Shown here: piece after piece, positions 487-25,920 of the stretch
How positions within the stretch are numbered: the first letter of the stretch is position 1
Layout: each line of letters opens with the position of its first letter
NCBI GenBank assembly: GCA_965153355.1
Contig: OZ231126.1
Coordinates: forward strand, 28,272,001 to 28,336,000
Source: Flaccisagitta enflata
Lineage: Eukaryota
DNA length: 64,000 bases
Reading direction: 5' to 3'
Notes under the pieces: model-generated
What the model saw: the letters and a program-made list of their open reading frames with translations, nothing else
Databases searched by the model: none
What the model was told of the DNA's origin: nothing
Program-made: the position numbers and the translations under genes

Positions 487-575
487 AAGAAGAAAAAGAA
501 GAAGAAGAAGAAGAAGAAGAAGAAGAAGAAGAAGAAGAAGAAGAAGAAGAAGAAGAAGAAGAAGAAGAAGAAGAA
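487..575. repeat. (GAA)n microsatellite
   Basis: Direct reading. Confidence 0.95.
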
Positions 576-3500: not shown

Positions 3501-3861
3501 CAGCCGTTTCTATGATAACCTTGAAAATGGGATGTTTTTACGATCCCCCCATGCATATAGATTGGAAAAATTACCCGGACTGTTGACCGCTATCAATACA
3601 TTCAGCCATATTTTGCAATAATTGACATTTACTTGGTCAAAAACTAAAGCGGGATTTGCCGCCGCAGCCTGATAAAACGGCATTGTTTTTGTCACCATTT
3701 CTAGCGCGATATGCCTCACGGTTTTGATCTTTTGTTTTGAACTCCTAAATGGACTTGCAAAATTCTTTTTGTTTTCATTTATTTACATTAGAACTTGACG
3801 TATGAGAAGGTCAATAGAGATTTTTCTTGCTAAGAAAAGAATCTGTGGGCCTTCCCACATA

Positions 3862-4416
3862 CAGTACCTTCCGAGCAAACCCGGCTAAAACTGGAGGATT
3901 ATTTTTTGTTACTTTAATTTCATTTCCCAAACTTCATTTTTTGTACATAACTTAATTAAAAGATACTTAATTCCTTGAACATATTTGGCTGTCAAAAAAA
4001 ATAACTTGTGAAATCAAAGTGCATGAAGACATCAATATTGAGTGTTCTAACCCAGACCATTGGATTTGGCAAAAAATTTTACCTATCCTAGACTACAAGA
4101 ACAGCTCAGTCAGATAATTATTTCAGATTTTACAGCCATTTAAAGTTTTTAAGGACAATTGTCTCAAAATAATTTAGGACAATTGTCCTTAAAAATGTAA
4201 ATCTGAAATCTGAAATGTCTGACTGAGCTGTTCGTAATTCACTGGATAGGTAAATACTGAGTCATCTGCGTTAGATTTCAATTTGATTTCATACCGCACG
4301 TATGTTCAGAGAATTAAATATTTTGAAAGTTGATGCAAAAATGAAGTTTGGGAAATGAAATTAAAGTATCAAAAATTAATCCTCCAGTTTTAACCGGGTT
4401 TGCTCGGAAGGTACTG
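3862..4416. mobile_element. Tc1/mariner-type MITE
   Basis: TA|cagtaccttccgagcaaacccgg...ccgggtttgctcggaaggtactg|TA, with long near-palindromic arms. Confidence 0.88.
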
Positions 4417-4728
4417 TAGCAATTGATAAGATTTTGAGCCATTTTTGGTCATTTTGGGTCATTCGAGCTATCTGGAAGGGTCCATCAGGGGTCAAAAGCC
4501 TTTACTCTTATCCACAAATAGTCCTTCTCTACTCTCCTCTCCTCTACTAGAAGACAGTATCTGAAAAGATAATTTGTCCATTTCATTGTTATTGAACCAA
4601 TGTTTTGGACATTTCTTACTATTTGCAGTTCATTAGGTTCCCTGAGGAGCCCCTGAATGGGCCCCTCAGGGGCCCATAAACTAGATTAGTGTATCTTGAG
4701 ATGGAATATACATCTCCATTAACCTCTA

Positions 4729-5255
4729 CAGTCAGTGGACAAAACACAATAGGTATATATATCACTCCGTTGCTTTTGATCCAACCCACTGATATTGAAC
4801 AAAATGCTGTAAACAACAACTGGTTATCGAAATTACAGCCGGCTGTTAGATTACAAAGTTGGCGATAATCCAACTTTCACCAAATAGAATGAGACCTGCA
4901 GATTCATAATCCTGATGACATTCTGAGAAGTTTGATATGTCACAACATATATTTTTATATGATAATTTTTTTTTTATAAATGCATGATTTGATTATAATG
5001 TAATGTTGAAAAAAAATACTTCTTACAAAAAGTGTTAAGTGTGACATGTCAAACTTCTCAGAATTTCATCAGGATTATGAATTTGCAGGTTTCATTCTTT
5101 TTGGTGAAAGTTGGATTTTTGCCAATTTTGTAACTGAACAGCCGGCTGTAATTTCAACAACCAGTTATTATTTACAGCATTCTGCTCAACATCAATGGGT
5201 TGAATCAAAACCAACAGAGTGATATATATACCTATTGTGTTTTGTCCGCTGACTG
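4729..5255. mobile_element. Palindromic Tc1/mariner-type MITE (family copy 1)
   Basis: cagtcagtggacaaaacacaatagg...cctattgtgttttgtccgctgactg, folds back over almost its full length, TA on the left. Confidence 0.85.
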
Positions 5256-6216
5256 TCTAGGAGAGACAGTTTGAACACATTTGCTCGTTCAATCAAAAGA
5301 GTGAAACCGGCCAAAATTACTAAAAACGCACATTTACCGTTTCTCTCCTCCTCCTCCTCCTCCTCCTCCTCCTCCACCTTGTCCACCACAACCACCTGCA
5401 CATTCCTCCAACCTCTGCAGTAATGATACAGTGACAAAAAATTTTGTAGTTCACATTTTACTTCAGCATTATGCATTTATTTCATATAATAGGGAAATCG
5501 CTTTAGTCAGTTTAAGTGGTATTTTTCAAAAATCATTGAAATCTCATTTGCATATTGTGGTCAAATCGCGCGCAACTAGACCCTTCAATATTGATGTCAA
5601 ATGAATTTCCTTCTATTCTTAAGACCCATACCCGTCATAAAAATCCCCAATGAGATCAGTGAGTGGAGAATTTATCTTTCAACTACAGCCCTGCCCACCC
5701 TGCCCACTTCCATACAGCTTTCGTCTCATTTTCGATTTGTCCGTCCGTCGTTTTGCATCCATTATCGGTTGCAAGCCATATCTACCCCGTCCACGTCAAA
5801 ACGTTCGAGATCAGCCGGTCGTATATCCGGCCTTGTTGTAAACACGCTCTCTGGAAGTCACGTCCATACCTCATTAGTTGTAAACACAGCTTGTTGTTTG
5901 CCTCGCAGGGTATTTCTTCAGTTGAATGCATGAATGAATAGATGGTAGCCATAAACCAAAAGAAAGAAAAATAGGAAAAAGAAAAAGACAAAGAAAAAAA
6001 AAAGACAAAAGATAAGAAGGAAAACCATTCAAGTGAAAGAAACTCAGCGACAAAAACCTTCACCACCAAAAGCAATGCGCAAGTGAGCGCAACCCTTGAT
6101 GTCATGGGAATGACACTCAGCATCTTTCCGAATCGATTTCGCTCTTTCTCCCTTTCTTTCTACGTTCGTTTCTATTCCTCTCCACTCTCATATCTTTCTT
6201 TCCTTCTTTCTTTCCT

Positions 6217-6279
<63 letters not shown>

Positions 6280-6280
6280 C

Positions 6281-6340
<60 letters not shown>

Positions 6341-8971
6341 TCCCTCAGATGAATTCGATGCATCCACTCTCCTTTCTTTCTTTCTTTCTTTCTCTGGTGA
6401 GCCCTTCTAAAGGACTATAAACCCAACCTGGTTGCGGCTGGTCAGGCAGTACCACCCACCAGGCCTCTTATGGTAGCATCTACCATACCCTTGGAGTGGA
6501 ACCCGGTGTGGGGCGGCGCGGGCCAAACCATAGTATATTGTGATAAGCCGGTAGTACCTCACCCCGAGGCAGCCTATGCCATGTCCATGCTGGAATCTTT
6601 ATGGAAGTCTGACTAGTAGCAAAGGGGTCATTCCCTTGGTCAATGCCTCTGAAGCATGCTTCAGAGGGCTCCCCATAAAGGATTCACTTGGACAGAAATC
6701 GGGCATTGTGACAGCTGGGGGTCACATCTTACTGGTTTCCAGAACATTTGGACGAAGTGGAGTGGTTGGCAGACATACCCTCTTAAGGGTTCCCTGGCGT
6801 AAGATTCCATATTTTTTAGCTCTCCTTTGGTACCATACTGTCGGACCAGTATCAAGGTCAGTCTGTGTGGTGGTTCACACTTAATATATCCATAAGCTGT
6901 GCCTGCGGTCTTGTCTGTCTGTCAAGACCAAAGGACCCTCAAGGTTATGCACAAGTCCTGGAGTCTGACCAGGCACCCTAACTTTGATTTCCATTGGGTA
7001 TTTACTGACTTAACTGACTTTAACCCACACACATTGCACCCGAAATCTGAGCTGCATCTCATTGAGTATCATCACCATAGGCACTGGCATATGTCCGGGC
7101 CAAACCGCATCAACTTTCTTCCCGCCGTATCGTCAAAAAAATTAAGCCCATTGCTTTTCTGTTCTTGATTTGGGCACATCGATGATCAAACAACCCAGGA
7201 GGGTTGTCCAACTCCGCTAACTCATCAAATTTTGACTTGTTGGATGGTCCCCGGAGTCGCGAGACAAAGGGGTCGTCGTTCTTACCATCCACAAGGAATT
7301 CCAACCAATCACGGCGAAGATCAGCGAAACGGTGATTACTCCTCAACGCTTTGGCCCAACATCAAAAGCCGCCCCATCATTATAATCGCAACCTTCAACA
7401 ATATCAAGTGCGGTGAACTTTTAACCAATCCCGACGCACCGTTCAAAAGTTACGGCCCGAAACGCGAAGATTAAGGGAAGAACAATACGTTTTGTCAAAT
7501 ATCTTCCAAACCGCTCAAGCTAACTCAAATCTGATTGGCTCCGCCTCCACTATATCGCACCTTGCGGTTCCATTGGTCATCCTACAAGACCATTTTGCTA
7601 AAGCCCCTGCCGCTATATGCAAATGAGCTGCTGCCTGAAACTTCAACGGCCTGTATCTCCTAAACCGTTGCTCCGATTCGAAATCCGATCGAATTTTTGG
7701 GTCCCCTTGGATCCCCTGAAGCCAACTCTTCTCTTTCCGGCAGCCTCCTCACACGCTCATTTTCTCCGTAATATGCAAATGAGGCTTTAGTAAGATCACC
7801 TTGAATTCTACCAAGAACAAAGACAAAAGGTAGCGGCCGAACGAATCGGGCTACTCGCGCCGTCATTCTCGCTCAAGAACACCGGTCCCCTAACCCCCTG
7901 GGGGCCGCTCAAAGTTCAAACATCCGAACTCCAGCGGTGTTGGAGTCGCCGTTCGTCGTCCCTGCCTAAGACAGGAACGGGGCATCATAGGGAGGCGCTC
8001 GGTGCAGGCACCGGCACCTTTCCCATAAGGTGAGCCGAGCCACGATAGCCGATCAATAGTCTTAATTAACTTTTGATTTTATCTTAACCGCTATCAATCA
8101 CTCTTCCTTTCATGCCTTCCCGCCTCAATGAGCTACGACGGCAACAACCATGCCTCCGACAGCCGTAGAGCAACCCGTTCCCAATCGGATTCCAATCCGA
8201 ACCTCCTCGCCCCGCCACTCACATCATTCCGCAGGCGTCGTTCCCCAACTCGCGACGAACGCCTCCTATCTCCGAACCACTGCGAGGAAATTTACGAGGA
8301 AGGAATCTTTCAATTCCCAGCTCCAACAGCAGCCATGGGCACTCCCGATCCAACCGTCGCAGCTCTCACAGAAGCCCTCCAGGGCGTCAGGGTGTCGAGT
8401 CGCAAGCCGGAACTCCCCGCATTCGATTCTAAAAACATCGATATCTGGCTCAAACGCGTCGACAACGCGTACAGGCGTTCGGGGGTTACGGACCCCAAAG
8501 ATAAATTCGCCTTCATCGAACCCAAGTTCGCGTGCGACACCGATCCCCACATCAATAGGGAAGGTCATATTGCGTACCTTGATGTATCTTCATGTAAGTT
8601 GGCAAAAACACTCGAGATGCTATTTATAAAAGATTGAGACCTTGCGCGACCTTCAACTCCTTGTATCTTCATTGTTCACAAAATGAAAAAAAAATCTTGA
8701 AAACAATTGAACTGAGTTTCCTCTCCGATTTAACCAGTTCGGTATGACAATTTTCCCCCCTAAAATCTCCAACAGCAAGTTTCTATATAACCATTTTATG
8801 TAGCGCGAACTTAAGCAATCATCTGTCAAGCAGTCTACGTGCGGTAGCGTACAGAGAGGCTATGCAGAGTGATAGCAAAGCGAAGCAGTCAATCTTTTTC
8901 ACGTTGGCGATTAGATCAGAACACGGATTGACTTTTTTCATCTATAAAATGTTATTCTTCATGTGAGCTTA

Positions 8972-9165
8972 TTTTTTTAGTCGCGTGCACGCGACTCTAC
9001 ACCCCGCTTTGTCCGTTGGTCGGTCGGTTGGTCTGTCACACTTTACTTTTTTTATATCTTTTATTCCGTGATGTCACTGCTCGTGCCCGAATGGTCTAGT
9101 GACCTCAAATATGGCCCCTGCCCACCCGCACGCGACTTCGGTAGTTGTGTATCCGGCCTTGTTTT
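8972..9165 (+). mobile_element. Helentron-associated short element (HINE/DINE-1-like), family A representative (~25 copies in window)
   Basis: T-run, 5' palindrome agtcgcgtgcacgcgact, (GGTC/GTCC)n core, 3' subterminal gcacgcgact, then ...gtgtatccggcc and ttgttt; no TSD. Other copies at ~1018, 9202, 24452, 26141, 27036, 27495, 29185, 35105, 41440, 46625, 47460, 55108, 59015, 60286, 60575. Confidence 0.72.
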
Positions 9166-9785
9166 CCTTTCCTTCCCTTATATTTCCCGCTATTTTACCC
9201 TTTTTTAGTCGCGTGCACGCGACTCTACACCTTGCCGTGTCGGTCGGTAGGTCGGTAGGTCGGTAGGTCGGTAGGTCGGTAGGTTGGTAGATCCGTCACG
9301 TTTTTGAAATTATGACTTTTTAAGGTTTTTTAAGGTATTTTAAGGTACTCTAGGGTATTTCAGGGTACTATAGGGTACTTCAGGGTACTTTAGGGAACTT
9401 AAGTTATTTTAGGGACTTAAGGTATTTTAGGGTACTTCCAGATATTTTTGGGTAATTTTGAGTATTTTTGAGTAATTTTGAGTATTTATGGGTATTTTTA
9501 GGTGTTTTTGGGTATTTTTGGGTATTTTTTGGTATTTTGGGTATTTTGGGTATTTTGTCAACTTTATATTGGACACTCGTTATTGGTTCAGAATGTAACT
9601 TTTTTTTGGGACAGGCGTTATGTAGTTTGAAGTTGTAGTATGTACTATGTAGTTATATAGTATGAAGTTATGTAGTATGAAGTTGTGTAGTATGAAGTTG
9701 TGTAATTGTGTTGTAACGAAGCACGCGACTGTTGGCCTGTTGGGCTTGTTTTCTTTTACTTTTCGTTTCTTTCTTTTATCTCCCA

Positions 9786-9787
<2 letters not shown>

Positions 9788-9818
<31 letters not shown>

Positions 9819-10676
9819 ATCTTTCCATCTGTCTTCCTTTCTTTCTTTCTCTCTGTCTTTCTTTCTCTCTGTCTTTCTTTCTCTCTGTCTTTCTTTCTTT
9901 CCGTCTTTCTTTCTTTCCGTCTTTCTTTCTTTCTTTCCGTCTTTCTTTCCGTCTTTCTTTCTTTCCGTCTTTCTTTCTTTCTGTCTTTCTTTCTTTCCGT
10001 CTTTCTTTCTTTCCGTCTGTCTTCCTTTCCATCTGTCTTCCTTTCCATCTGTCTTCCTTTCCGTCTTTCTTTCTTTCTTTCTTTCTTTCTTCCTTCCTTT
10101 CCTTCTTTCTGTCTGTCTTCCTTTCCTTTCTTTTTTTCTGTCTGTCTTCCTTTCCTTTCTTTCTTTCTGTCTGTCTTCCTTTCCTTTCTTTCTTACTGTC
10201 TGTCTTCCTTTCCTTTCTTTCTTTCTGTCTGTCTTCCTTTCCTTCTTTCTTTCTGTCTGTCTTCCTTTCCTTCTTTCTTTCTGTCTGTCTTTCTTTCCTT
10301 CTTTCTTTCTGTCTGTCTTCCTTTCCTTCTTTCTTTCTGTCTGTCTTCCTTTCCTTCTTTCTTTCTGTCTGTCTTCCTTTCCTTCTTTCTTTCTGTCTGT
10401 CTTCCTTTCCTTCTTTCTTTCTGTCTGTCTTCCTTTCCTTCTTTCTTTCTGTCTATCTTCCTTTCCTTCTTTCTTTCTGTCTGTCTTCCTTTCCTTCTTT
10501 CTTTCTGTCTGTCTTCCTTTCCTTCTTTCTTTCTGTCTGTCTTCCTTTCCTTTCCTTCTTTCTTTCTTTCTGTCTGTCTGTCTATCTGTCTGTCTGTCTG
10601 TCTTTCTTTCTTTCTTTCTTTCCTTCCTTCTTTCCTTCTTTCCTTCTTTCCTTCTTTCCTTCTTTCTTTCTTTCCT

Positions 10677-10716
<40 letters not shown>

Positions 10717-10717
10717 T
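9788..10717. repeat. Compound CTTT/CTGT pyrimidine microsatellite-minisatellite
   Basis: Direct reading. It generates the F/L/S-rich pseudo-ORFs at 9662-10863. Confidence 0.95.
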
Positions 10718-11178
10718 CCAGTTTTTTATTGTTTTTATTCCAAGCAGACGGTCACCTAGTAAGTCGGTCGGTCACGATTTTTTGCGATTCGCGAATGAGC
10801 GGACCTCCTCTCTTTTTAAATTGCCCATCTAGTCTTCTTCATCACTGTCCATACATGACTTGAGTTAATATTCGCGTGTATCTGTTATTCTGAATTATGG
10901 ACGAATGGATAAAAGGAAGAATGGACGTATTATCTGACAATTTGAGGACGATACTTTACGCTAAGTCGCAATGATTATGTACGAATCGTTTCATCCGATC
11001 CCCTAACTCGTATAATGTAATTATTGCACATGTCCGTTCACAGAAACTTGTCAACAAATAACGCAGGGTTGCGCTATCATCGCAGACGGGTGCGCAGCAG
11101 CAAACAGGCCCCCCCCCCCCCCCACAAACAGGATGTATCACACCCGCGATAATAAAGAATGCGTACTTTGCTCATTAG

Positions 11179-11416
11179 CAGCCCTGAAAATAGAGCGGGC
11201 CCGCGGGCCCGAGGCCCGCATATTGGCTGTCGGGCCCGCAAATTAAACTAGCTGCGGGCCCAATGGGCCCGCAGCAATTTTGCTTAGTATCCTGGAATCA
11301 TAATTTGATCCAACTTACATTCTTGTATTCCTATGGCGAACTGTCATTTTGTTCTGCGGTAAAATTGATATCAAACGTAAGAATAGCAAAACCACATTTT
11401 TCGTTCTCCTGGAGTT

Positions 11417-11468
<52 letters not shown>

Positions 11469-11471
11469 ACA

Positions 11472-11559
<88 letters not shown>

Positions 11560-11837
11560 CACACACACACTGAGAGGGACGGAGGGATGGGTAAAACTTC
11601 CCTGAGAAATGTTACCATTATTCTTTGCATAATTCTTTCCATTTATTAGGAAATAGTTTGCATAGATAGAAGAATTCACTGCAGTGTTGTAGCAGTGTGT
11701 TTACACAGGCTTAGGATAACAGAAAGCTTGGAATAACTATATTTAAGTCGGGCCCGCTGTTTTCCTGTCGGGCCCGCAAAAATTGGGTAGAGCGGGCCCG
11801 ACGGGCCCGCTGAAAAAAATTGCTATTTTCAGGGCTG
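11179..11837. mobile_element. hAT-type MITE nested in the gag insertion
   Basis: 15-bp TIR cagccctgaaaatag, perfect 8-bp TSD ctcattag, many GGGCCC subterminal motifs and an internal (AG)n(AC)n. Confidence 0.9.
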
Positions 11838-12970
11838 CTCATTAGCGAACATTTAATCAAAAGGATAGCGGTGCTCTATGATCAGAAATCGACACTCGCT
11901 ATCAAGAAGGAACACCGAGACCCGATGCAATCTCTCCTTTTTCCCTTATTTGCATAATGCAGTCAGTTCTCAACTAAGGATACGGAACTTTCGTTGAGAA
12001 CATTTGCTCATGAAACTTCCTAGCATAAACGAATGTTTTTGTTATAAGAGAAAAGTGGATATGCTTTAAGTGAGTTACTTAATTGTTATTAACTACTTGA
12101 AGATTAACTGACAAGCTGTGACTCTAATTGAACCCAACAGCGTCTATTGTGCTTTTTGTTAGCGAAAAGTGTTATGAACAATGAACATACAAGGATTTGA
12201 ACGCGGATTTTTTTGCCGTTATTCATCAATTTTCAAGTCGGTTGCTCTCCGTAACTTACATGGCAATCTGAGACAAAAACGCATATTGACCTACCCTACC
12301 GCATCAATGAACTCCTCTTTGGCGATTGCACTGCGGAGGACTGGACAGCTCTGGAGACGTATCTGCGCGGTCGCTACGGCCCCCACCAAGGCGCAACAAG
12401 CGTCAGTTATTCTCGACGGGGTCCAACGAGACGGCAAACTCCCGTCGGAAATGTTTGCTTTTGTGAAGGAGCGCGTCGGCACAATTACCGTCGACGACAT
12501 CATCAAAGAGATGGTCCTGAGGGAACTCCCGACAGACATCAGACGCACCATCCACGGTAAGGTGAAAGACCTCGGTGGCGCGGAAACCGTCAAGATAGCA
12601 GACGAATACTTTGATCGAAACGGCAAGCCACTTCACAAACCTGCCCCATCCAACGTCAACACCGTCAACGAAGTCCCAGGACTCATCGACACCGAAGACG
12701 AAGCGGATGAAGTCAATGCAGTTGGTGGCCGCCGCTTCCAAAGAAAAGGCATCCAAATCGCTTTCCAGCCCCGAAACCTCAACAGACAGCCAAACCGACC
12801 GGACAAAATCGTCCGCAAAACTCCTCTTTCACCCCTGCCTTTGCCGAAAAACGGACCCATTTGGGTAAACCGACCGTCAAACCCATCAATCTTTGCAAGT
12901 GGCACCAGCAATTTGGCAAGAAAGCCTACACCTGCGAGTCAGGCTGCGACGAGTTCCCAAAATTCAACGC

Positions 12971-14465
12971 GGGAAAAGCCAAGGCAGGCCGGCAGACGTG
13001 AATGCCGCGACCGGCCCAAAAGGTTCGTTACTTCACGTAATCGATCGAAATGAAGGCCACAAATGGCTCGTCGACGGCGGAGCATTGCTATCGATCATCC
13101 CACCCACAAACTCGCAACGACGTCAAGGCCCCAACAGCCTTGGTTTGTGTGCCGCGAACGGCACAAAAATTGATTGTTTTGGCAGCTAAGAAAAAACTCT
13201 TGTCATTGGCGACAGATCCTTTGCGTTCACCTTTACAATAGCAAATGTTCGTCAACGTATATTGGGTTCCGACTTTCTCGCCGCCTTTTACCTTGCCCCA
13301 AACCACAGAGACGGAACACTAATTGATCTTGATTCGTTAGACGTCATTCCGGCTATGTTCGCGTATAACGTAAAATCAAGCCCAATCTCCTTCGTCAACA
13401 AAATCAACGACCCCTATTACCGTCTCCTCGATTCTTATCCCAAAATTATCACCCCGTCCTTTCATCCCGTCGAAATAAAGCATGGCGTAAGGCATCATAT
13501 TCCGACGACCGGACACCCAATCCAAAATCGCGCGCGAAAACTCGATTCCGAAAAACTCCGAGTCGCAAAACAAGAGATAGAAAAACTCGTCAAACTCGGA
13601 GTGTGTCAAAGAGCATCTGCCTCTCAATCGGAATGGGCGTCCCCACTTATGGTTGCTCGTAAACCATGTATCAACCCTTGCAACTGCACTCCGCCGGTCC
13701 CGTGCGGCGGATGGCGCATTTGCGGAGACTATAGACGTCTCAACGCCATCACTCAGGATGATAAATATCCTGTAAGATCTATCCACGACTTTAACGCCGA
13801 GCTTCACGGCAAAACAATTTTTTCCAAGATAGATCTCATGAAAGGGTATCACCAGATACCGGTGGCCCCAGACGACGTCAAGAAAACCGGCATCATCACG
13901 CCCTTCGGTCTTTTTGTCTTCCCCAGAACACCCTTCGGACTAAAGAATGCTGGGCAAGACTTCCAGCGGTTGATGGATGCCATCCTCGGGGACATTCCGC
14001 GCGTCTACGTATATATCAACGACATACTCGTCGCTTCCGAGTCACCAGAGCAACACCTCGAGGACCTCAAAACCGTGTTCAAAATCCTCTCCGACAACGG
14101 CCTCGTGGTACAACGCTCAAAATGCGTCCTCGGCAAGTCCGAGCTGGAATTTCTCGGGTACCACGTCGACGTGAACGGTATCGCGCCACTCCCGACCCGA
14201 GTCGAAGCCATCCGCGCAGTACCAGCCCCAACCTCAATCAAAGAACTGCAAAGGTTCTTGGGGATGGTTAATTACTACCGTCGTTTCCTCCGCAAAGCCG
14301 CGCACCACCTTCACCCTATGTTCAATGCCCTCAAAGGCCCGACAAAGAAAAAGGGTGAACCACGACCGAAACCAAGAATTCTCACATGGAACGATGAACT
14401 ACAACAATCCTTCGATGCTATCAAGGAGGCCTTGGCAACGGCAACCCTCCTTCATCACCCGCGTC
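12971..14465 (+). pseudogene. pol: pol (PR-RT) of the left arm
   Basis: Protease frame has TAA at 13187-13189 (TCA in the right arm). The RT ORF from 13262 runs to the inversion junction. YIND motif. Confidence 0.87.
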
Positions 14466-16975
14466 ACAACGACGGCCGTAAGGAGGTAACGGAAGCTGTT
14501 TGATGTGGGAAGAGACAAGATGTCCACGTTCCAGTGTTGAAAACGTTTTGTTGGCATAATGTAATGACTGATTGGGGCGACGGTGTGCCTTGTAACCTTT
14601 GCTCGCTGGCATGATTGACACTCGCGGGCCCATCTTGAGACGTCTTGGCGTATGGAGGGCCAGACAAACTTTGCGCAGATTGCTTGGCGGGTTCTTTCAA
14701 CCCCGGGGTGGCCCAATCCGTGGATTGCGTCAAAGATGCGGCGTCTCCACGAATACGGGACAAACGGACGAGCGGGTCCGTTTGAGACGTCGACGATTAT
14801 TTCCGTTTCTCCCAGGTTGACTTTTTTGAAGTTCAGGTTGGTCCTGGCGTCCGACGACATTCATACGTATTCCGGGTCGAGAGCTTGCTCTTGAGCCATG
14901 TCATGGAGACTGACGTTGATGTTGCTAATCGCGTTCACAACGGCGGCGAGGTCGTCGGTTTTGTGAGGTTGGATCGCGTCGTGAGGAGAAACGTCTGGAT
15001 CGTTTAGGATACCCGCGTCAATCATTGCGATGATGAAGACGTGTTTCTTGTCCATGAAGCTTTGACCCTGGATTGACGAGACGACTCGTTTGTCGCACCC
15101 AGGAGGACGAGATAGTGCGTCTGCGACAACATTCAATTTTCCCTCGATGTATTGGATGTTCGTCGAATATTCGGATACGCAGGTTAGTTGGTACGTTTGC
15201 CTGGATGTTAGCGGATTGGATTTTTTCCGCATTGACGGAACGAGAGCCTGTTGGTCGGTAAATATGGTGAAGGCGTGTCCTTCGACCATTGGACGGAAAT
15301 GACGTACGGAACGGAACATAGCCAACAATTCCCTGTCAAAGGCTGGCCAATCAATTTGATTATCTTCGAGCTTCGCGCTGTAGAAAGATAATGGCTCCCA
15401 ACCGTTGGGACCGAGTTGCTCGAGAACTCCTCCGATCACGTATTTGGAAGCGTCTGTGGTCAAAGCAAGCGGAGCGTTTGGACGCGGGTGATGAAGGAGG
15501 GTTGCCGTTGCCAAGGCCTCCTTGATAGCGTCGAAGGATTGTTGTAGTTCATCGTTCCATGTGAGAATTCTTGGTTTTGGTCGTGGTTCACCCTTTTTCT
15601 TTGTCGGGCCTTTGAGGGCATTGAACATAGGGTGAAGGTGGTGCGCGGCTTTGCGGAGGAAACGACGGTAGTAATTAACCATCCCCAAGAACCTTTGCAG
15701 TTCTTTGATTGAGGTTGGGGCTGGTACTGCACGGATGGCTTCGACTCGGGTTGGGAGTGGCGCGATACCGTTCACGTCGACGTGGTATCCGAGAAATTCA
15801 AGCTCGGACTTGCCGAGGACACATTTTGAGCGTTATACCACGAGGCCGTTGTCGGAGAGGATTTTGAACACGGTTTTGAGGTCCTCGAGGTGTTGCTCTG
15901 GTGACTCGGAAGCGACGAGTATGTCGTTGATATATACGTAGACGCACGGAATGTCCCCGAGGATGGCATCCATCAACCGCTGGAAGTCTTGCCCAGCATT
16001 CTTTAGTCCAAATGGTGTTCTGGGGAAGACAAAAAGACCGAAGGGCGTGATGATGCCGGTTTTCTTGACGTCATCTGGGGCCACCGGTATCTGGTGATAC
16101 CCTTTCATGAGATCTATCTTGGAAAAAATTGTTTTGCCGTGAAGCTCGGCATTAAAGTCGTGGATAGATCTTACAGGATATTTATCATCCTGAGTGATGG
16201 CGTTGAGAAGTCTATAGTCTCCGCAAACGCGCCATCCGCCGCACGGGACCGTCGGAGTGCAGTTGCAAGGGTTGACACATGGTTTACGAGCAACCATAAG
16301 TGGGGACGCCCATTCCGATTGAGAGGCAGATGCTCTTTGACACACTCCGAGTTTGACGAGTTTTTCTATCTCTTGTTTTGCGACTTGGAGTTTTTCGGAA
16401 TCGAGTTTCCGCGCGCGATTTTGGATTGGGTGTCCGGTCGTCGGAATATGATGCCTTACGCCATGCTTTACTTCGACGGGATGAAAGGACGGGGTGGTAA
16501 TTTCGGGATAAGAATCGAGGAGACGGTAATAGGGGTCGTTGATTTCGTTGACGAAGGAGATTGGGTTTGATTTTACATTATACGCGAACATAGCCGGAAT
16601 GACGTCTAACGAATCAAGATCAATTAGTGTTCCGTCTCTGTGGTTTGGGGCAAGGTAAAAGGCGGCAAGAAAGTCAGAACCCAATATACGTTGACGAACA
16701 TTTGCTATTGTAAAGGTGAATGTAAAGGATCTGTCGCCGATGACAAGAGTTTTTTCTGAGCTGCCAAAACAATCAATTTTTGTGCCGTTCGCGGCACACA
16801 AACCAAGGCTGTTGGGGCCTTGACGTCGTTGCGAGTTTGTGGGCGGGATGATCGATAGCAATGCTCCGCCGTCGACGAGCCATTTGTGGCCTTCATTTCG
16901 ATCGATTACGTGAAGTAACGAACCTTTTGGGCCGGTCGCGGCATTCACGTCTGCCGGCCGGCCTTGGCTTTTCCC
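14466..16975 (-). pseudogene. pol: pol (PR-RT-RH-partial IN) of the right arm, with in-frame stops
   Basis: ORFs 15833-16948, 14861-15775 and 14399-14860 are one frame split by stops at 15833-15835 and 14861-14863. RT motif is YIND. Confidence 0.88.
16930..16975 (-). promoter_or_regulatory. -1 ribosomal frameshift signal gag/pol (copy at 12971-13016, +)
   Basis: In-frame slippery heptamer G_GGA_AAA, then a 5-nt spacer and the stem-loop GGCCGG-c-CGGCA-gacgtgaa-TGCCG-cga-CCGGCC. The -1 frame reads straight into the protease. Confidence 0.75.
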
Positions 16976-18066
16976 GCGTTGAATTTAGCGAACTCGTCGC
17001 AGCCTGACTCGCAGGTGTAGGCTTTCTTGCCAAATTGCTGGTGCCACTTGCAAAGATTGATGGGTTTGACGGTCGGTTTACCCGAATGGGTCCGTTTTTC
17101 GGCAAAGGCAGGGGTGAAAGAGGAGTTTTGCGGACAATTTTGTCCGGTCCGTTTGGCTGTCTGTTGAGGTTTTCGGGCTGGAAAGCGATTTGGACGTCCT
17201 TTTCTTTGGAAGCGGCGGCCACCAACTGCATTGACTTCATCCGCTTCGTCTTCGGTGTCGATGAGTCCTGGGACTTCGTTGACGGCGTTGACGTTGGATG
17301 GGGCAGGTTTGTGAAGTGGCTTGCCGTTTCGATCGAAGTATTCGTCTGCTATCTTGACGGTTTCCGCGCCACCGAGGTCTTTCACCTTACCGTGGATGGT
17401 GCGTCTGATGTCTGTCGGGAGTTCCCTCAGGACCATCTCTTTGATGATGTCGTCGACGGTAATTGTGCCGACGTGCTCCTTCACGAAAGCAAACATTTCC
17501 AACGGGAGTTTGCCGTCTTGTTGGACCACGTCGAGAATAACTGACGCTTGTTGCGCCTTGGTGCGGCCGTAGCGACCGCGCAGATACGTCTCCAGAGCTG
17601 TCCAGTCCTCCGCAGTGCAATCGCCGAAGAGGAGTTCATTGATGCGGGGATCGGTGTCGCACGCGAACTTGGGTTCGATGAAGGCGAATTTATCTTTGGG
17701 GTCCGTAACTCCCAAACGCCTGTACGCGTTGTCGACGCGTTTGAGCCAGATATCGATGTTTTTAGAATCGAATGCGGGGAGTTCCGGCTTGCGACTCGAC
17801 ACCCTGACGCCCTGGAGGGCTTCTGTGAGAGCTGCGACGGTTGGATCGGGAGTACCCATGGCTGCTGTTGGAGCTGGGAATTGAAAGATTCCTTCCTCGC
17901 AAATTTCCTCGCAGTGGTTCGGAGATAGGAGGCGTTCGTCGCGAGTTGGGGAACGACGCCTGCGGAATGATGTGAGTGGCGGGGCGAGGAGGTTCGGATT
18001 GGAATCCGATTGGAAACGGGTTGCTCTACGGCTGTCGGAGGCTTGGTTGTTGCCGTCGTAGCTCAT
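16945..18066 (-). CDS. gag: Gag (373 aa, open) with CHCC zinc knuckle
   Basis: KPELPAFDSKNIDIWLKRVD N-terminal motif and CKWHQQFGKKAYTCESGC (C-X2-H-X9-C-X3-C), the CHCC knuckle typical of CsRn1-clade gag. Confidence 0.85.
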   Translation of the reverse strand: MSYDGNNQASDSRRATRFQSDSNPNLLAPPLTSFRRRRSPTRDERLLSPNHCEEICEEGIFQFPAPTAAMGTPDPTVAALTEALQGVRVSSRKPELPAFDSKNIDIWLKRVDNAYRRLGVTDPKDKFAFIEPKFACDTDPRINELLFGDCTAEDWTALETYLRGRYGRTKAQQASVILDVVQQDGKLPLEMFAFVKEHVGTITVDDIIKEMVLRELPTDIRRTIHGKVKDLGGAETVKIADEYFDRNGKPLHKPAPSNVNAVNEVPGLIDTEDEADEVNAVGGRRFQRKGRPNRFPARKPQQTAKRTGQNCPQNSSFTPAFAEKRTHSGKPTVKPINLCKWHQQFGKKAYTCESGCDEFAKFNAGKAKAGRQT

Positions 18067-19789
18067 CGAGGCGGGAAGGCATGAAAGGAAAAGTGATTGA
18101 TAGCGGTTAAGATAAAATCAAAAGTTAATTAAGACTATTGATCGGCTATCGTGGCTCGGCTCACCTTATGGGAAAGGTGCAGGTGCCTGCACCGAGCGCC
18201 TCCCTATGATGCCCCGTTCCTGTCTTAGGCAGGGACGACGAACGGCGACTCTAACACCACTGGAGTTCGGATGTTTGAACTTTGAGCGGCCCCCAGGGGG
18301 TTAGGGGACCGGTGTTCTTGAGCGAGAATGACGGCGCGAGTAGCCCGATTCGTTCGGCCACTACCTTTTGTCTTTGTTCTTGGTAGAATTCGAGGTGATC
18401 TTACTAAAGCCTCATTTGCATATTACGGAGAAAATGAGCGTGTGAGGAGGCTGCCGGAAAGAGAAGAGTTGGCTTCAAGGGACTTAAGGGGACCCAAAAT
18501 TTCGATCGGATTTCGAATCGGAGCAACGGTTTAGGAGATATCGAGCGTTGAAGTTTCAGGCAGCAGCTCATTTGCATATAGCGGCAAGGGCTTTAGCAAA
18601 ATGATCTTGTAGGATGACCAATGGAACCGCAAGGTGCGATATAGTGGAGGCGGAACCAATCAGATTTGAGTTAGCTTGAGCGGTTTGGAAGATATTTGAC
18701 AAAACGTATTATTCTTCCCTTAATCTTCGCATTTTGGGCCGTAACTTTTGAACGGTGCGTCGGGATTGGTTAAAAGTTCACCGCACTTGATGTCATTGAA
18801 GGTTGCGATTATAATGATGGGCGGCTTTTGACGTTGGACCAAAGCGTTGAGGAGTTTTCACCGTTTCGCTGATCTTCGCCGTGATTGGATGAAATTCTTT
18901 GTGGATGGTAGGAACGTCGACCCCTTTGTCTCGCGACTCCGGGGACCATCCAACAAGTTGAAATTTGATGAGTTATGCGGAGTTGGACAACCCTCCTGGG
19001 TTGTTTGATCATCGATGTGCCCAAATCAAGAACAGAAAAGCAATGGGCTTTATTTTTTTGAAGATACGGCGGGAAGAAAGTTGATGCGGTTTGGCCCGGA
19101 CATATGCCAGTGCCTATGGTGATAATACTCAATGAGATGCAGCTCAGATATCGGGTGCAATGTGTGTGGGTTAAAGTCAGTTGAGTCAGTAAATACCCAA
19201 TGGAAATCAAAGTTAGGGTGCCTGGTCAGACTCCAGGACTTGTGCATAACCTTGGGGGTCCTTTGGTCTTGACAGACAGACAAGACCGCAGGCACAGCTT
19301 ATGGATATATAATGTGTGAACCACCACACAGACTGACCTTGATACTGGTCCGACAGTATGGTACCAAAGGAGAGCTAAAAAATATGGAATCTTATGCCAG
19401 GGAACCCTTAAGAGGGTATGGCTGCCAACCACTCCACTTGGTCCAAATGTTCTGGAAACCAGTAAGTTGTGACCCCCAGCTGTCACAATGCCCGATTTCT
19501 GTCCAAGTGAATCCTTTATGGGGAGCCCTCTGAAGCATGCTTCAGAGGCATTGACCAAGGGAATGACCCCTTTGCTACTAGTCAGACTTCCATAAAGATT
19601 CCAGCATGGACATGGCATAGGCTGCCTCGGGGTGAGATACTACCGGCTTATCACAATATACTATGGTTTGGCCCGCGCCGCCCCACACCGGGTTCCACTC
19701 CAAGGGTATGGTAGATGCTACCATAAGAGGCCTGGTGGGTGGTACTGCCTGACCAGCCGCAACCAGGTTGGGTTTATAGTCCTTTAGAA

Positions 19790-19799
19790 GGGCTCACCA
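19790..19799 (-). promoter_or_regulatory. Primer-binding site (tRNA-Trp-like); copy at 6395-6404 (+)
   Basis: TGGTGAGCCC follows the LTR end and differs by one base from the TGGTGACCCC tRNA-Trp PBS known for CsRn1-clade elements. Confidence 0.6.
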
Positions 19800-19800
19800 A

Positions 19801-19884
19801 TGTAGATAATCAGGAGATTAACTAACAGAGACATGAATGTTCCACAGATAATGCTGTAGGATTCTAATACAAAATTCTAATACA
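19801..19884 (-). repeat. Short or truncated 5' LTR remnant of the right arm
   Basis: Minus strand reads ...ATTATCTACA-T-TGGTGAGCCC, i.e. an LTR CA end, a 1-nt spacer, then the PBS. Possible TGTA starts at 19871 or 19884. No second LTR is visible in the window. Confidence 0.55.
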
Positions 19885-19889
19885 AAATG

Positions 19890-19913
19890 TTTCTTTCCTT
19901 CTTTGTTTCTTTG

Positions 19914-19987
<74 letters not shown>

Positions 19988-20214
19988 TAGTTCGTTGTTT
20001 CTTTGTTTGTTTCTTTGTTGCTCATTTTCTTTATTTCTTTGTTTATTTGTTTGTTTGTTTGTTTCTTTCTGTATTTGTTTGTTTATTTGTTTGTTTGTTT
20101 GTTGGTTTGTTTGTTTGTTTGTTTGTTTGTTTGTTTGTTTCTCTCTTTCTTCATTTCTTTCCTTCCTTCTTTCTTTCTTTCTTTCCCTCAGAGGAATTCG
20201 ATTCATCCACTCTC

Positions 20215-20293
<79 letters not shown>

Positions 20294-20465
20294 TCGTTGT
20301 TTGTTTGTTTGTTTGTTTGTTTGTTTGTTTGTTTGTTTGTTTCTTATTATCTTTATATCTTTGTTTATTTGTTTGTTTGTTTGTTTGTTTGTTTGTTTGT
20401 TTCTTTCTGTATTTCTTTGTTTGTTTGTTTGTTTGTTTGTTTGTTTGTTTGTTTCTTTGTTTCTT
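19890..20465. repeat. (CTTT)n/(GTTT)n microsatellite tract (partner (CTTT)n at 6193-6392)
   Basis: Direct reading. These tracts flank the retrotransposon palindrome on both sides. Confidence 0.92.
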
Positions 20466-21856
20466 TGTCATTTACTTTCTTCCTCCCTTTCCTTTACAGA
20501 GTAAAACTCCATTCCTCTCCGCTTCCCTTCTGTTCTGATGATTTATCCACTAAACACTTCCTGTCTTCCCACCTTCCTTTCTCCCCTTTTTTCTGCCCCA
20601 CCATTTCTCCGTCTTTGTGTTTGTTGACACTGTTAGATTGTCGGCGGTGCCGGTGGTGACGGTGGTGACCTCAGTAGCGGCAGTGACGGTGGTGACGGTG
20701 GTGACGTTCTATCGACTTGGTAAGAGACCTTTCCAGATCCCATTTCCTGAATGCTTGTCGGGATACAACCGAGTCAACGAACCTTTTATATATTTCTGGC
20801 CTTTAAAACCCATCTCTTTATTTCGTATAGATAAGTAGGTTTTGTTCTTACGCAGTATGACGTGTACGCGATTCTATAACTACTGTAAAACTGTGATGTT
20901 ATTTTTTTGCCCCTGCCCAAAGACTAAAATAGTTACTGCATCCAGCCTGCGATCATAGGGACCATTATACCAGTAATGGCGACTGTCGCCGTGAGGAGAA
21001 AAGTCATAAGCATTGGTCACTTTTCACCAAGTTTTTGTTTTCAGTCACTGAAATTTTTTTTATTTGTGAGATCAAATTAAGAGCAATTGTATGTATTGAT
21101 TGCACTGAAAACCAGAGAAAAATAGGACTGAGCCAATTGAGCTAGATGAGCTAAAATACTCAATCACTCAACAAGACAACCAGCTATGCTCACTGACATG
21201 TTTTCTTGTATTTGCATGCTTACATCAAAACACTTGAATATCCCATTTAAAATCAGAAAAAAACTGAGCTAAATGAGCTAAAATACTCAAAAACACCCTC
21301 ACAGATGAGCAGCTAAGCTCACTGACATGCTTTCTTGTATTTACATGCTCAATCATGTATCAAAACATTCATTCATTTATCCTGTTAAGAATCAGAAAAA
21401 AAGATAGAGCTAAATGAGCTAATTAAGCTAGAATACTGAAAAACACCCTCTCAGATGAGCAGCTGTGCTTATTAACATGTTTTCTTGTAGTTGCGTGCTC
21501 AAACAAACATCAATGCACTTCTTTATTGGTTCTACACAAAATCATGAGAAATAAAAAAGAATTCAATATGAATTTTCCATAAAACAAAATCTTTTAAAAA
21601 TCACAACTCCAAAAATATTTGTCCTAGAACATTCTGTTTGGTGCCAAATGAAAGAGAACTATCAAATTTAGTTACCCCATCTATTTCATCGGAGGACTAA
21701 ATCAGCCCTATGAGATTCCCAAATTTTGCATAAGACGGCGAATTTTTGAAGGAAAATTAAGTGTTTCACCATACTTTTTGCATCATTGTCATGACAATAA
21801 TGAAGCTGGAATGCTTTTAGCAGACATTTTGTCTCTAAAGACACTTGGTGTATACC

Positions 21857-22397
21857 TTTTTGGGCAGCGGCCCCAAAGGGCCGATGTCCTGTAGAACACA
21901 GGGGGGAATTTCCATACGTCCGTCCGTCCGTCCTTCCGTCCGTCCCCCCCCCCCCGTTGGCCATCAAGGCCTCAAATTTACCCTCCCAGCCCTAAATTTA
22001 GCCCTCCAGGCCTCAAATCAGCCTTCCAGGCTTCAAATCAGCCCCCCCCTCCGCCTCAAATCTGACCTACAGACCTCAGATCTGCCCTCCAGACCTTCAA
22101 TTAGGCCTCCAAGCATCAAACCTGCCCACTGTGGCTCAAATTTGCCCTCCAAACCTCAAATCCACTCTCCAAGCCTAAATTCTGCCCTCCAGCCTTCAAA
22201 TATAACTTCTTTGGCCTGAATCAGTCATCTATTGCCTGAAATATGCCCCCTCAGGACGTATGGAAATTTCCCCCTGTGTTCTACAGGACATCGGCCCTTT
22301 GGGGCCGCTGCCCTGCTCTCACTCCACTTCTTCACTGGATCACTCCCAGCAGGGCATCGGGTACCGCTGACCATGTGCGATCCTTGGATGACTAGTT
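21857..22397 (+). mobile_element. HINE-like family B with internal ~20-bp minisatellite
   Basis: ~60-bp asymmetric inverted repeat (gggcagcggccccaaagggccgatgtcc...) around (gcctcaaatcagccctccag)-like repeats, with 3' tail gggtaccgctgacc. Relatives at ~2825-3150 (+), ~44075-44515 (-) and ~47961-48535 (-). Confidence 0.68.
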
Positions 22398-23626: not shown

Positions 23627-23729
<103 letters not shown>

Positions 23730-23939
23730 ATCTCAGATGGTAAAGACCTCTATAGATAAAAAGAACCGATGTTGCAAGAGAACCGATGTCGGAACGCGTA
23801 GGATTCAATGAATCCAAATCCCCAACTTTCTCACGGCCCTCCACGATATCGTCAATTTCAAAACGAAGAGTTTGATTTACAACGGCCGCGGATGTTGCTG
23901 TGATGTGACTAAATACGTTAAATACGTTAAAACATTGTG

Positions 23940-24293
23940 CAATACGTCCCATGAAGCGCCCCAAACTTCGACTATGGCTTCCACCAATCTTTCCACAGTT
24001 GAGTCTTGGTAAAAAAACATTCCATGCAAAATTTTGGGCCTCTCAGAGAGCAGGAACCTTCGTTAGGCTGAGGTTGAAGTTTGCATTGAATTAGCATTGG
24101 AATCAATATTTCTATTATGCAAATTTTGTCTCTGCCATAGATTTCTATTGAAACTTCATGGTCTCCCTAACGAAGGTTCCCGCTATCCCAGAGGCCTAAA
24201 AATTTGCATGAGATATTTTTTTACCAAGCCTCGTCTATGGTAAGATTGGTGAGAGCCAGTGTTTAACTTTGGGGCGTTTTCATTGACGTATTG
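23940..24293. mobile_element. Foldback MITE
   Basis: caatacgtcccatgaagcgccccaaa...tttggggcgttttcattgacgtattg, with arms complementary for ~150 bp. Confidence 0.7.
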
Positions 24294-25628: not shown

Positions 25629-25700
25629 TATTCATTCGACGATCCATTCGGCGTCGTATCGGTCACTTGACCTTGGACAAAAATGTGCTGGGGTTTGGTC

Positions 25701-25920
<220 letters not shown>

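What the first reader, a model, noticed from the sequence alone, without database searches (positions are those of the whole stretch)
6395..19799. Tail-to-tail fused gypsy retrotransposons form a giant intronic hairpin (candidate endo-siRNA trap locus)
Seen: 6395-8555 plus 12308-14465 (~4.3 kb) is the near-identical reverse complement of 19799-15481, separated by a 1015-bp spacer (14466-15480) of RNase H and integrase. Neither copy has a 3' LTR, and they are fused directly at 14465/14466. The structure lies in an intron of a phase-consistent kinesin gene, so host pre-mRNA should read through both arms. Known: long inverted repeats in transcripts are Dicer substrates and can silence cognate transposons in trans (e.g. 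maize Mu killer, Drosophila hpRNAs); they are also ADAR substrates. Inference: this could be a host-transcribed dsRNA source covering leader, gag, PR and RT of a CsRn1-like family.
Basis: partly seen in the sequence, partly recalled or inferred. Interest (0 to 1): 0.78.

Follow-up and report, generated by a model that had tools for sequence, protein, structure and literature searches.

The report
Inverted retrotransposon pair in kinesin intron
Two broken copies of one gypsy-type retrotransposon sit tail to tail inside a 25.6-kb intron of a kinesin-3 gene, so RNA read across them should fold into a very long hairpin, but nothing yet shows that this hairpin is used for anything.

Summary
6395-8556 plus 12299-14471 is the reverse complement of 19799-15475: 4,323 aligned bases, 97.5% identical. 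The 1.0-kb spacer is the right copy's RNase H and integrase zinc domain.

Both copies start at the same element end (TGGTGAGCC...) next to different flanks. Both lack their 3' parts. They stop at residues 489 and 826 of an intact 1,305-aa Pol relative.

The left arm later took a 3.74-kb terminal-inverted-repeat transposon with a 9-10 bp target duplication. Together with 107 substitutions, 49 of them at CpG, this argues against an assembly fold-back.

The kinesin claim also holds. Three phase-compatible minus-strand exons (50061-49929, 26066-25928, 309-84) match C. elegans KLP-6 residues 351-390, 417-461 and 465-537 in order. The whole structure therefore lies in the 25927-310 intron.

The Gag carries the CsRn1-clade CHCC motif.

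Most likely origin: two convergent insertions joined by one deletion. dsRNA formation is predicted. Transcription, small RNAs and editing are untested, and the junction has no independent read support. This is a new member of a known kind, of modest interest.

The parts
6395..8556 (+). Left copy, part 1: element 5' end (starts TGGTGAGCC), long leader or LTR region and start of gag. This is the outer half of the left arm.
   Evidence: Inverted blocks I3, I5 and I2. Shared 5' end with a different flank.
8557..12298 (.). Later insertion splitting the left arm: a 3.74-kb non-coding element with imperfect terminal inverted repeats, rich in microsatellites. It is flanked by a 9-10 bp target-site duplication, CC[A/G]CATCAA(T), at 8547-8556 and 12299-12308.
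   Evidence: Contigs of RNA-library run X13 stop exactly at 8556 and 12298 (table 8, records 12 and 14), as expected if other copies share these termini.
12299..14465 (+). Left copy, part 2: rest of gag (CHCC motif), then RT and the first 28 residues of the RNase H domain. It is truncated at Pol residue 489 of 1,305.
   Evidence: Pfam RVT_1 E 3.5e-28 and RT_RNaseH_2 positions 1-28 of 100. tblastn of P0003.
14466..14471 (.). Tail-to-tail junction. These are about 5-6 bases that cannot be assigned to one copy (possible short microhomology or filler).
   Evidence: The left copy matches its expected continuation up to 14465. The right copy matches P0003 down to 14471.
14472..15474 (-). Spacer, the loop of the hairpin. 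It is the continuation of the right copy (RNase H and the integrase H2C2 zinc domain) and ends at Pol residue 826 of 1,305. The integrase catalytic core (rve) is missing.
   Evidence: Pfam PF17919, PF17917 and PF17921. P0003 carries PF00665 rve. tblastn.
15475..19799 (-). Right arm: right copy from its 5' end (19799) through leader, gag (18117-16945, CHCC motif) and RT. The pol frame has two in-frame stops.
25928..26066 (-). Host kinesin-3 exon upstream of the hairpin intron (MKENWEERL...NLAEDPALT plus 1 base). Acceptor AG at 26068-26067, donor GT at 25927-25926, ends in phase 1.
   Evidence: PDB 7wrg_A (KLP-6) residues 417-461, E 4e-4.
84..309 (-). Host kinesin-3 FHA-domain exon downstream of the hairpin intron. 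Acceptor AG at 311-310, starts in phase 1, donor GT at 83-82.
   Evidence: Pfam FHA E 4.5e-6 for 1 of 150 ORFs, located. Splice sites. PDB kinesin-3 FHA chains, including 7wrg_A residues 465-537.
49929..50061 (-). Host kinesin-3 exon with the end of the motor domain and the neck coil (FADRAKSVKTSAVINESPTEKLIRELREENEKLK...). It ends in phase 0.
   Evidence: Pfam Kinesin_assoc E 9e-6 for 1 of 150 ORFs, located. Splice sites. PDB 7wrg_A residues 351-390 E 4e-9, also KIF1A and KIF13B.
310..25927 (-). The 25,618-nt intron that holds the whole inverted structure.
   Evidence: Exon boundaries and phases. KLP-6 residues 461 and 465 are contiguous across it.

Best explanation
This is a real, ageing transposon rearrangement. 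Two copies of one CsRn1-like Ty3/gypsy retrotransposon family inserted separately, in convergent orientation, into what is now a 25.6-kb intron of a KLP-6-like kinesin-3 gene on the minus strand. A single deletion with end-joining then removed the 3' part of both copies and whatever lay between them. That left copy A (Pol residues 1-489) fused tail to tail to copy B (Pol residues 1-826). Later a 3.74-kb TIR transposon landed in copy A, and both copies gathered CpG-type substitutions and stop codons. The result is a 4.3-kb-arm inverted repeat with a 1.0-kb loop and a 3.7-kb one-sided bulge. Any transcript that crosses it will fold into long dsRNA. Such a transcript could be the kinesin pre-mRNA, in which copy B is sense and copy A antisense. 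It could also, in principle, be read-through from either copy's own 5' promoter, because no 3' LTR terminator lies between them. The dsRNA would then be a substrate for Dicer or ADAR-type enzymes. Shown here: the repeat, the truncation points, the later insertion, the intron position and the predicted fold. Inferred: the order of events, the deletion mechanism, transcription and any processing. I regard the hairpin as a by-product of transposon turnover that may leak siRNAs, not as an evolved device.
For: - **Repeat:** inverted repeat of 4,323 nt at 97.5% identity.
- **Separate insertions:** both arms end outward at the same element base (TGGTGAGCC) next to unrelated flanks...TTTCTC| on the left and |ATGTAG on the right. 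This means two separate integration ends and no shared target-site duplication.
- **Truncation points:** an intact 1,305-aa Pol relative, P0003, is 96% identical and carries the RVT_1, RNase H, H2C2 and rve domains. It aligns at residues 1-826 to the right copy and 1-489 to the left copy, with no hit elsewhere in the window.
- **Age and authenticity:** 107 substitutions (77 transitions, 49 in CpG context); different in-frame stops in the two copies; and the TIR insert with its target duplication in one arm only.
- **Flanks belong together:** the exon at 26066-25928 and the FHA exon at 309-84 are on the same strand, phase-compatible (phase 1 to phase 1), and match consecutive KLP-6 residues 417-461 and 465-537.
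- **Fold:** the minus-strand RNA of 14272-15674 folds with its two 200-nt arm ends paired almost base for base, at -690 kcal/mol.
Against: - No read or contig independent of the assembly was shown to cross the junction. The table of contig pieces was cut and listed none across 14466, and an exact 32-nt junction probe found 0 matches in JGI metagenome contigs.
- The deletion model cannot be checked by target-site duplications, because both 3' ends are gone.
- The LTR boundary and primer-binding site were not delimited. That 6395 and 19799 are true LTR termini rests on the shared end and the TG start only.
- Transcription of the kinesin gene and of the arms is not shown.
Confidence: 0.6

Rival explanations
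1. Functional hairpin-RNA locus, the reader's 'trap'. In this reading the inverted pair is transcribed within the kinesin pre-mRNA or from its own promoters. It is diced into siRNAs that silence the still-intact members of the family in trans, and it is kept because of that.
For: A long near-perfect stem is predicted and the structure sits inside a gene's intron. Cognate targets plausibly exist: an intact Pol (P0003, 1,305 aa, 96% identical) and an intact Gag (P0123, 373 aa, 97% identical) are found in ENA metagenome assemblies. RNA-library contigs match the family's leader region at 6481-7209 and 19160-19456. That run may contain DNA, and the contigs cannot be assigned to this locus.
Against: No small-RNA or editing data exist. 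The arms decay like neutral DNA, with CpG transitions, stops and a 3.7-kb insertion that splits one arm. The origin is fully explained without any function. This rival concerns function and is compatible with the origin given in the best explanation.
Confidence: 0.12
2. In-situ inverted duplication. In this reading a single inserted copy (the right one) was partly duplicated in inverse orientation by replication template switching or fold-back repair.
For: The two arms are very similar (97.5%). The junction has at most a few ambiguous bases, as template-switch junctions do.
Against: The duplicated arm would have to end by coincidence at exactly the element's own first base, because homology stops at TGGTGAGCC on both sides and the flanks are unrelated.
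Confidence: 0.1
3. Unit insertion of an aberrant inverted-dimer cDNA, such as a snap-back reverse-transcription product with two 5' ends.
For: Both outer ends are the same element terminus, and no 3' LTR is present.
Against: There is no common target-site duplication around the composite (TTCTC against ATGTA). The arms differ by 2.5% and carry different stops, although that could have accumulated later.
Confidence: 0.08
4. Assembly artefact, either a chimeric fold-back read or a mis-join inside a repeat.
For: The region is surrounded by very high-copy repeats.
Against: Fold-back artefacts give near-identical arms. Here there are 107 substitutions, 5 indels and a 3.74-kb insertion with its own target duplication in one arm only. 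The unique flanks on the two sides carry consecutive, phase-matched exons of one gene, so the two halves come from one locus. The window contains no N.
Confidence: 0.07

Closest known systems
CsRn1 clade of Ty3/gypsy LTR retrotransposons (CsRn1, PwRn1, AgCR elements; PMC2582038, passages read)
   Same: The Gag carries the clade's unusual CX2HX9CX3C (CHCC) signature in place of CCHC. It is present in both copies here and in 92 of 95 Gag relatives, while 0 of 95 have CCHC. The Pol order is RT, RNase H, integrase. Gag and pol lie in different frames with a short overlap.
   Different: A tRNA-Trp primer-binding site was not found with a recalled 17-nt probe. The LTRs could not be delimited. No phylogeny against named clade members was made. 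The host is a marine organism whose DNA also occurs in marine metagenomes, whereas the paper describes the clade from trematodes and insects.
Hairpin-RNA (hpRNA) and inverted-repeat endo-siRNA loci, such as Drosophila hpRNAs and maize Mu killer (recalled, not read). PMC4423592 states that endogenous siRNAs come from TEs, cis-NATs or long inverted-repeat transcripts (passage read).
   Same: A long inverted duplication of a transposon's 5' part, with no terminator between the arms, placed where a longer transcript can read through it. The predicted RNA is a kilobase-scale duplex.
   Different: Here nothing beyond the DNA architecture is shown: no small RNAs, no Dicer dependence and no effect on the family. 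The arms are much longer (2 x 2.16 kb blocks) than typical Drosophila hpRNA stems, which I recall as a few hundred nt. One arm is also interrupted by a 3.7-kb bulge.
Nested or clustered, truncated LTR-retrotransposon remnants in long introns of large invertebrate genomes (general knowledge)
   Same: The copies are dead, with stops, truncations, later insertions and CpG decay. They lie in a repeat-dense 25.6-kb intron.
   Different: The exact tail-to-tail fusion of two copies of the same family is a less common outcome than tandem or nested arrangements. It gives 4.3 kb of complementarity.
Kinesin-3 family, C. elegans KLP-6 (PDB 7WRG, identified as full-length KLP-6 in bioRxiv 10.1101/2025.02.11.637744, passages read). 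This is the host gene only.
   Same: Three exons align in order to KLP-6 residues 351-390, 417-461 and 465-537. Weaker hits go to KIF1A and KIF13B. Pfam finds Kinesin_assoc and FHA.
   Different: No motor-domain motifs (P-loop, switch I, switch II) occur anywhere in the window. The motor exons must therefore lie beyond 64000. Orthology to KLP-6 rather than to another kinesin-3 was not tested by a tree.

Membership tests
Ty3/gypsy (Metaviridae) LTR retrotransposon | Pol domain order protease, RT, RNase H, integrase | tested here: met
   Right copy on the minus strand: RVT_1 (E 6e-22), then RT_RNaseH_2 (7e-30), then Integrase_H2C2 (3e-18). P0003, a 1,305-aa relative 96% identical to the arms, adds rve PF00665. 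Pfam did not call the protease.
Ty3/gypsy (Metaviridae) LTR retrotransposon | Two long terminal direct repeats and a short target-site duplication | tested here: not met
   No second copy of the first 1.7 kb exists in the window in direct orientation. Both 3' ends are deleted, so neither the LTR length nor a target-site duplication can be read. This reflects truncation of these copies, not the nature of the family.
CsRn1 clade | Gag CHCC signature CX2HX9CX3C in place of CCHC (PMC2582038) | tested here: met
   CKWHQQFGKKAYTCESGC at residue 356 of the right-copy Gag translation P0002. The same stretch appears in the left-copy ORF list. Of 95 Gag relatives, 92 carry CHCC and 0 carry CCHC.
CsRn1 clade | Primer-binding site complementary to tRNA-Trp (PMC2582038) | tested here: inconclusive
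   A 17-nt tRNA-Trp primer-binding-site probe recalled from memory gave 0 matches at up to 3 mismatches. The probe is not from this host, and the paper's primer-binding-site figure is a supplement I could not see.
CsRn1 clade | Groups with named clade members in an RT-RH-IN tree | not tested
   No named reference sequences were returned. All hits were unnamed.
hpRNA / inverted-repeat endo-siRNA precursor | Long inverted repeat able to form an intramolecular duplex | tested here: met
   4,323 nt at 97.5% identity. The sample fold has its arms fully paired at -690 kcal/mol.
hpRNA / inverted-repeat endo-siRNA precursor | Both arms present on one transcript | tested here: inconclusive
   This follows from the intron position if the gene is expressed. 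The one RNA run laid gave no contig on 12338-19007, which the tool says proves nothing.
hpRNA / inverted-repeat endo-siRNA precursor | Dicer-dependent 20-23-nt small RNAs from the arms and depleted in the loop | not testable with these tools
   No small-RNA libraries were available.
Kinesin-3 (host gene) | Neck and Kinesin_assoc region followed by an FHA domain, in order on one strand | tested here: met
   Pfam PF16183 (E 9e-6) and PF00498 (E 4.5e-6) among 590 ORFs scanned. Hits to KLP-6 are collinear. Phases are compatible.
Kinesin-3 (host gene) | Kinesin motor domain with P-loop, switch I and switch II | tested here: not met
   Recalled motif patterns found none in six frames of the window. 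Only the last motor helix (FADRAK) is present at 50060. The motor exons are presumably upstream, beyond the window.

The most novel reading that the evidence does not exclude
The locus could be a naturally arisen 'killer' hairpin in a marine invertebrate. In this reading it is transcribed inside the kinesin-3 pre-mRNA, or from either copy's own 5' promoter with no terminator between the arms. It then yields siRNAs covering leader, gag and RT. These hold down a CsRn1-like family that still has intact Gag and Pol genes elsewhere (96-97% identical relatives). That would make it an animal counterpart of maize Mu killer, embedded in an essential motor gene's intron.
Probability: 0.12. Interest if true: 0.6.

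Novelty: new member of a known kind. Interest (0 to 1): 0.3.

Why it matters
If the hairpin is transcribed and diced, it would be a clear case of a transposon family disarmed by an accidental rearrangement of its own copies. It would be arm-specific and could be tracked by 107 diagnostic SNPs, in a group of marine animals where small-RNA defence is little studied. As it stands, it is a well-documented example of how insertion plus deletion creates kilobase-scale inverted repeats inside genes. It is useful as a candidate locus and as a caution for assemblers and annotators, but it is not in itself surprising.

Tried and rejected
- **Whole-genome search:** no genome is held for this window.
- **Earlier findings of the scan:** nothing by place, sequence or words.
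- **Laying reads (runs X1, X3, X2 and X13, all short Logan contigs):**
  - No listed contig piece bridges 14466. The tables were cut.
  - No joint linking 6394 to 19800 was listed.
  - The RNA run X13 had zero depth on 12338-19007.
  - None of this is evidence either way.
  - Depths suggest that the leader or LTR part is far more abundant than the internal part, but the tool warns that depth is not a copy number.
- **Junction probe:** an exact 32-nt probe found 0 matches in JGI metagenome contigs.
- **Related loci:** The search for related loci with the RNase H ORF returned only one 60%-identical fragment at a contig end (L001). It was of no use for the 3' structure.
- **Composite target-site duplication:** absent.
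- **tRNA-Trp primer-binding site:** the recalled probe found none.
- **Kinesin motor motifs:** none in the window.
- **Six-frame Pfam scan of whole flanks:** I replaced it with a scan of 590 stop-free ORFs of at least 38 aa. These lay outside the arms and had passed a low-complexity filter (590 of 950 ORFs). That filter dropped the exon at 26066-25928 because of its poly-Val tail. I found that exon by motif instead.
- **ORF 62913-63998:** no Pfam hit and no Atlas hit.
- **Literature:**
  - The 'tail-to-tail' passage in PMC4423592 concerns neighbouring genes, not transposons.
  - PMC10945585 did not contain the term 7WRG in its main text.
  - Searches listed no paper on tail-to-tail LTR-element hairpins in introns. 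They were not exhaustive.


Full report
**1. Observation**

The repeat finder on 5000-21500 returned six collinear inverted blocks. Together they pair 6395-8556 and 12299-14471 with 19799-15475, at 93-99% per block.

I took the left arm without its insert and aligned it to the reverse complement of the right copy. The result was 4,323 aligned positions, 107 mismatches (97.5% identity) and five one-base indels. Of the mismatches, 77 are transitions, 30 are transversions, and 49 lie in a CpG context.

**2. What the repeated unit is**

On the minus strand the right copy reads as follows:
- a 390-codon gag frame at 18117-16945;
- an overlapping pol frame with RVT_1 (E 6e-22), RT_RNaseH_2 (7e-30) and Integrase_H2C2 (3e-18).

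The left copy, on the plus strand, has RVT_1 (3.5e-28) and only the first 28 positions of the RNase H model.

The Gag ends with CKWHQQFGKKAYTCESGC. That is CX2HX9CX3C, the CHCC signature which PMC2582038 gives as the hallmark of the CsRn1 clade (passages read). Of the 95 Gag relatives found in the protein collection, 92 carry this signature and none carries the classical CCHC. The tRNA-Trp primer-binding site could not be confirmed, and no tree was made.

A search for longer relatives found an intact 1,305-aa Pol, P0003. It is 96% identical and carries RVT_1, RNase H, H2C2 and the rve core. tblastn of P0003 against the window hits only the two arms:
- residues 1-826 match 16948-14471;
- residues 1-489, before the match breaks down, end at 14464.

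Both copies are thus 3'-truncated, at different points. The 1.0-kb 'spacer' is simply the extra 337 Pol residues that the right copy keeps. The right pol frame has two in-frame stops. The left copy has a stop at a different place. Both copies are dead apart from the truncation.

**3. Ends, junction and later history**

Both arms end outward at the same base of the element (TGGTGAGCC...), and the sequence beyond differs at once...TTTCTC on the left and ATGTAG... on the right. There is no target-site duplication around the composite. This fits two separate integration ends.

At the inner side, the left copy follows its expected sequence to 14465, and the right copy follows P0003 down to 14471. 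Five or six bases are therefore ambiguous.

The left arm is split by 8557-12298. This stretch starts and ends with imperfect inverted termini (TAGGGAAGGTC... and ...GACCTACCCTA). It is flanked by a 9-10 bp duplication of the retroelement sequence, CC[A/G]CATCAA(T). The uninterrupted right arm has that sequence once. Contigs of an RNA-library run stop exactly at 8556 and 12298 (records 12 and 14), as expected if other copies of this TIR element exist. The one mismatch in the duplication is again a CpG transition.

These features make a fold-back assembly artefact unlikely:
- the arms have diverged;
- each copy has private stops;
- a private insertion carries its own duplication.

**4. The host gene**

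No kinesin motor motif occurs in any frame of the window. I therefore scanned 590 stop-free ORFs against Pfam in four batches. These were the ORFs of at least 38 aa, outside the arms, that passed a complexity filter (590 of 950). One ORF matched FHA (E 4.5e-6) and one matched Kinesin_assoc (E 9e-6). The other hits were weak and unrelated. The tool does not name the matching members, so I located them by motif. I found a third exon the same way; the complexity filter had dropped it.

Splice sites and phases were read from the sequence:

| Exon (minus strand) | Start | End | KLP-6 residues matched (PDB chain 7wrg_A) | E-value |
|---|---|---|---|---|
| 50061-49929 | after an AG acceptor | phase 0 | 351-390 | 4e-9 |
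| 26066-25928 | phase 0 | phase 1 | 417-461 | 4e-4 |
| 309-84 | phase 1 | before a GT donor | 465-537 | 3e-3 |

The first and third exons also give hits to KIF1A, KIF1B and KIF13B. A preprint identifies 7WRG as full-length C. elegans KLP-6 (passages read).

KLP-6 residues 461 and 465 are contiguous across the 25927-310 interval. That interval is therefore a single 25,618-nt intron, and the whole inverted structure (6395-19799) lies inside it. The gene is on the minus strand, so a pre-mRNA would carry the right copy in sense, then the loop, then the left copy in antisense with the 3.7-kb insert as a bulge.

**5. Would it fold?**

The minus-strand RNA of 14272-15674 covers 200 nt of each arm plus the loop. 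It folds with the arm ends paired almost base for base at -690 kcal/mol. Over the full length there are two 2.16-kb duplex blocks.

**6. Independent data**

No genome is held for this window. Sequencing-run look-up found the stretch in runs of one coded organism and in marine metagenomes of several studies. The largest share of sampled words was 0.45.

I laid four runs. They gave only short contigs:
- none listed across the junction;
- no empty-site joint listed;
- in the RNA run, contigs only on the family's leader region (6481-7209 and 19160-19456) and on high-copy repeats.

The tool itself warns that uncovered parts prove nothing and that the RNA library may hold DNA. An exact junction probe found nothing in JGI metagenome contigs. 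The junction therefore rests on the assembly plus the internal arguments above.

**7. Mechanism**

The simplest history is two convergent insertions into the same intron, followed by one deletion that joined them by end-joining. The TIR-element insertion and neutral decay came later.
- An in-situ inverted duplication would need its outer breakpoint to coincide with the element's first base.
- A unit insertion of an inverted-dimer cDNA should have left a common target duplication, which is absent.

Because no 3' LTR lies between the arms, read-through from either copy's own promoter would also make a hairpin. That is inference.

Whether any RNA across the locus is made, diced or edited is unknown. 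Intact, 96-97% identical Gag and Pol genes exist in public assemblies. Targets for such siRNAs may therefore exist, but this is not evidence of function.

**8. Comparison and verdict**

In architecture the locus resembles hpRNA and inverted-repeat siRNA sources. PMC4423592 names long inverted-repeat transcripts as one source of endo-siRNAs (passage read). Mu killer and the Drosophila hpRNAs are recalled, not read. Only the structural criterion for such loci is met here.

It is a new member of a known kind: a transposon-derived long inverted repeat in an intron. I score interest at 0.3. I give a 12% chance that it is a working, biologically meaningful silencer, which would deserve about 0.6.

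Noticed in passing
window 8557-12298: A 3.74-kb non-coding element with imperfect terminal inverted repeats and a 9-10 bp target-site duplication. It is filled with (TTTC)n, (AG)n, (AC)n and other microsatellites. RNA-library contigs end exactly at both termini, so other copies exist. Its superfamily was not determined.
   Followed up: partly
window 8973-9290, 21800-22400, and short copies near 24451, 27170, 35391, 41529, 46711, 55276, 59351 and 60394: A short repeat (TTTTTTAGTCGCGTGCACGCGACTC...) followed by a (GGTC)n-type microsatellite. In the runs of the coded organism its summed word depth is 1e5-1e6, against about 1e2 for the unique flank. It is probably a SINE- or MITE-like family that dominates this genome.
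   Followed up: partly
window 62913-63998 (+): An open frame of 362 codons running to the window's end. It is Ser/Asn-rich with an acidic and a basic tail. It has no Pfam family and no Atlas hit. It lies on the strand opposite to the kinesin gene, upstream of the last kinesin exon seen.
   Followed up: partly
window 25635-25927 (-): A long (GTT)n run starts immediately after the donor site of the kinesin exon at 25928. In frame it would read as about 75 valines, so a donor-site shift would add a poly-Val tract.
   Followed up: no
window 29900-30600: The ORF list shows a ladder of overlapping frames spaced 71 nt apart on both strands. This suggests a tandem array with a 71-nt period in a strongly C-rich region (GC skew -0.40 at 30001-32000).
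   Followed up: no
window 49929-64000 (-): No further kinesin motor exon was found in the 14 kb upstream of the FADRAK exon. About 26 KLP-6 residues (391-416) are also unaccounted for between the first two exons. A small exon may lie in 26067-49928, or the proteins may differ in length there.
   Followed up: partly
proteins P0003 and P0123 (ENA metagenome assemblies): Uninterrupted Pol (1,305 aa, 96% identical) and Gag (373 aa, 97% identical) of the same family exist on contigs of 5-6 kb, among 2,490 Pol and 95 Gag relatives. The family is diverse and may still be active somewhere.
   Followed up: partly
window 7035-7209 and 19160-19456: One 473-nt contig of the RNA-library run X13 is laid partly on the left arm and partly on the right arm, in element order (record 11). 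It is a leader-region sequence of the family that matches each arm best in a different part, so it probably comes from a third copy.
   Followed up: no
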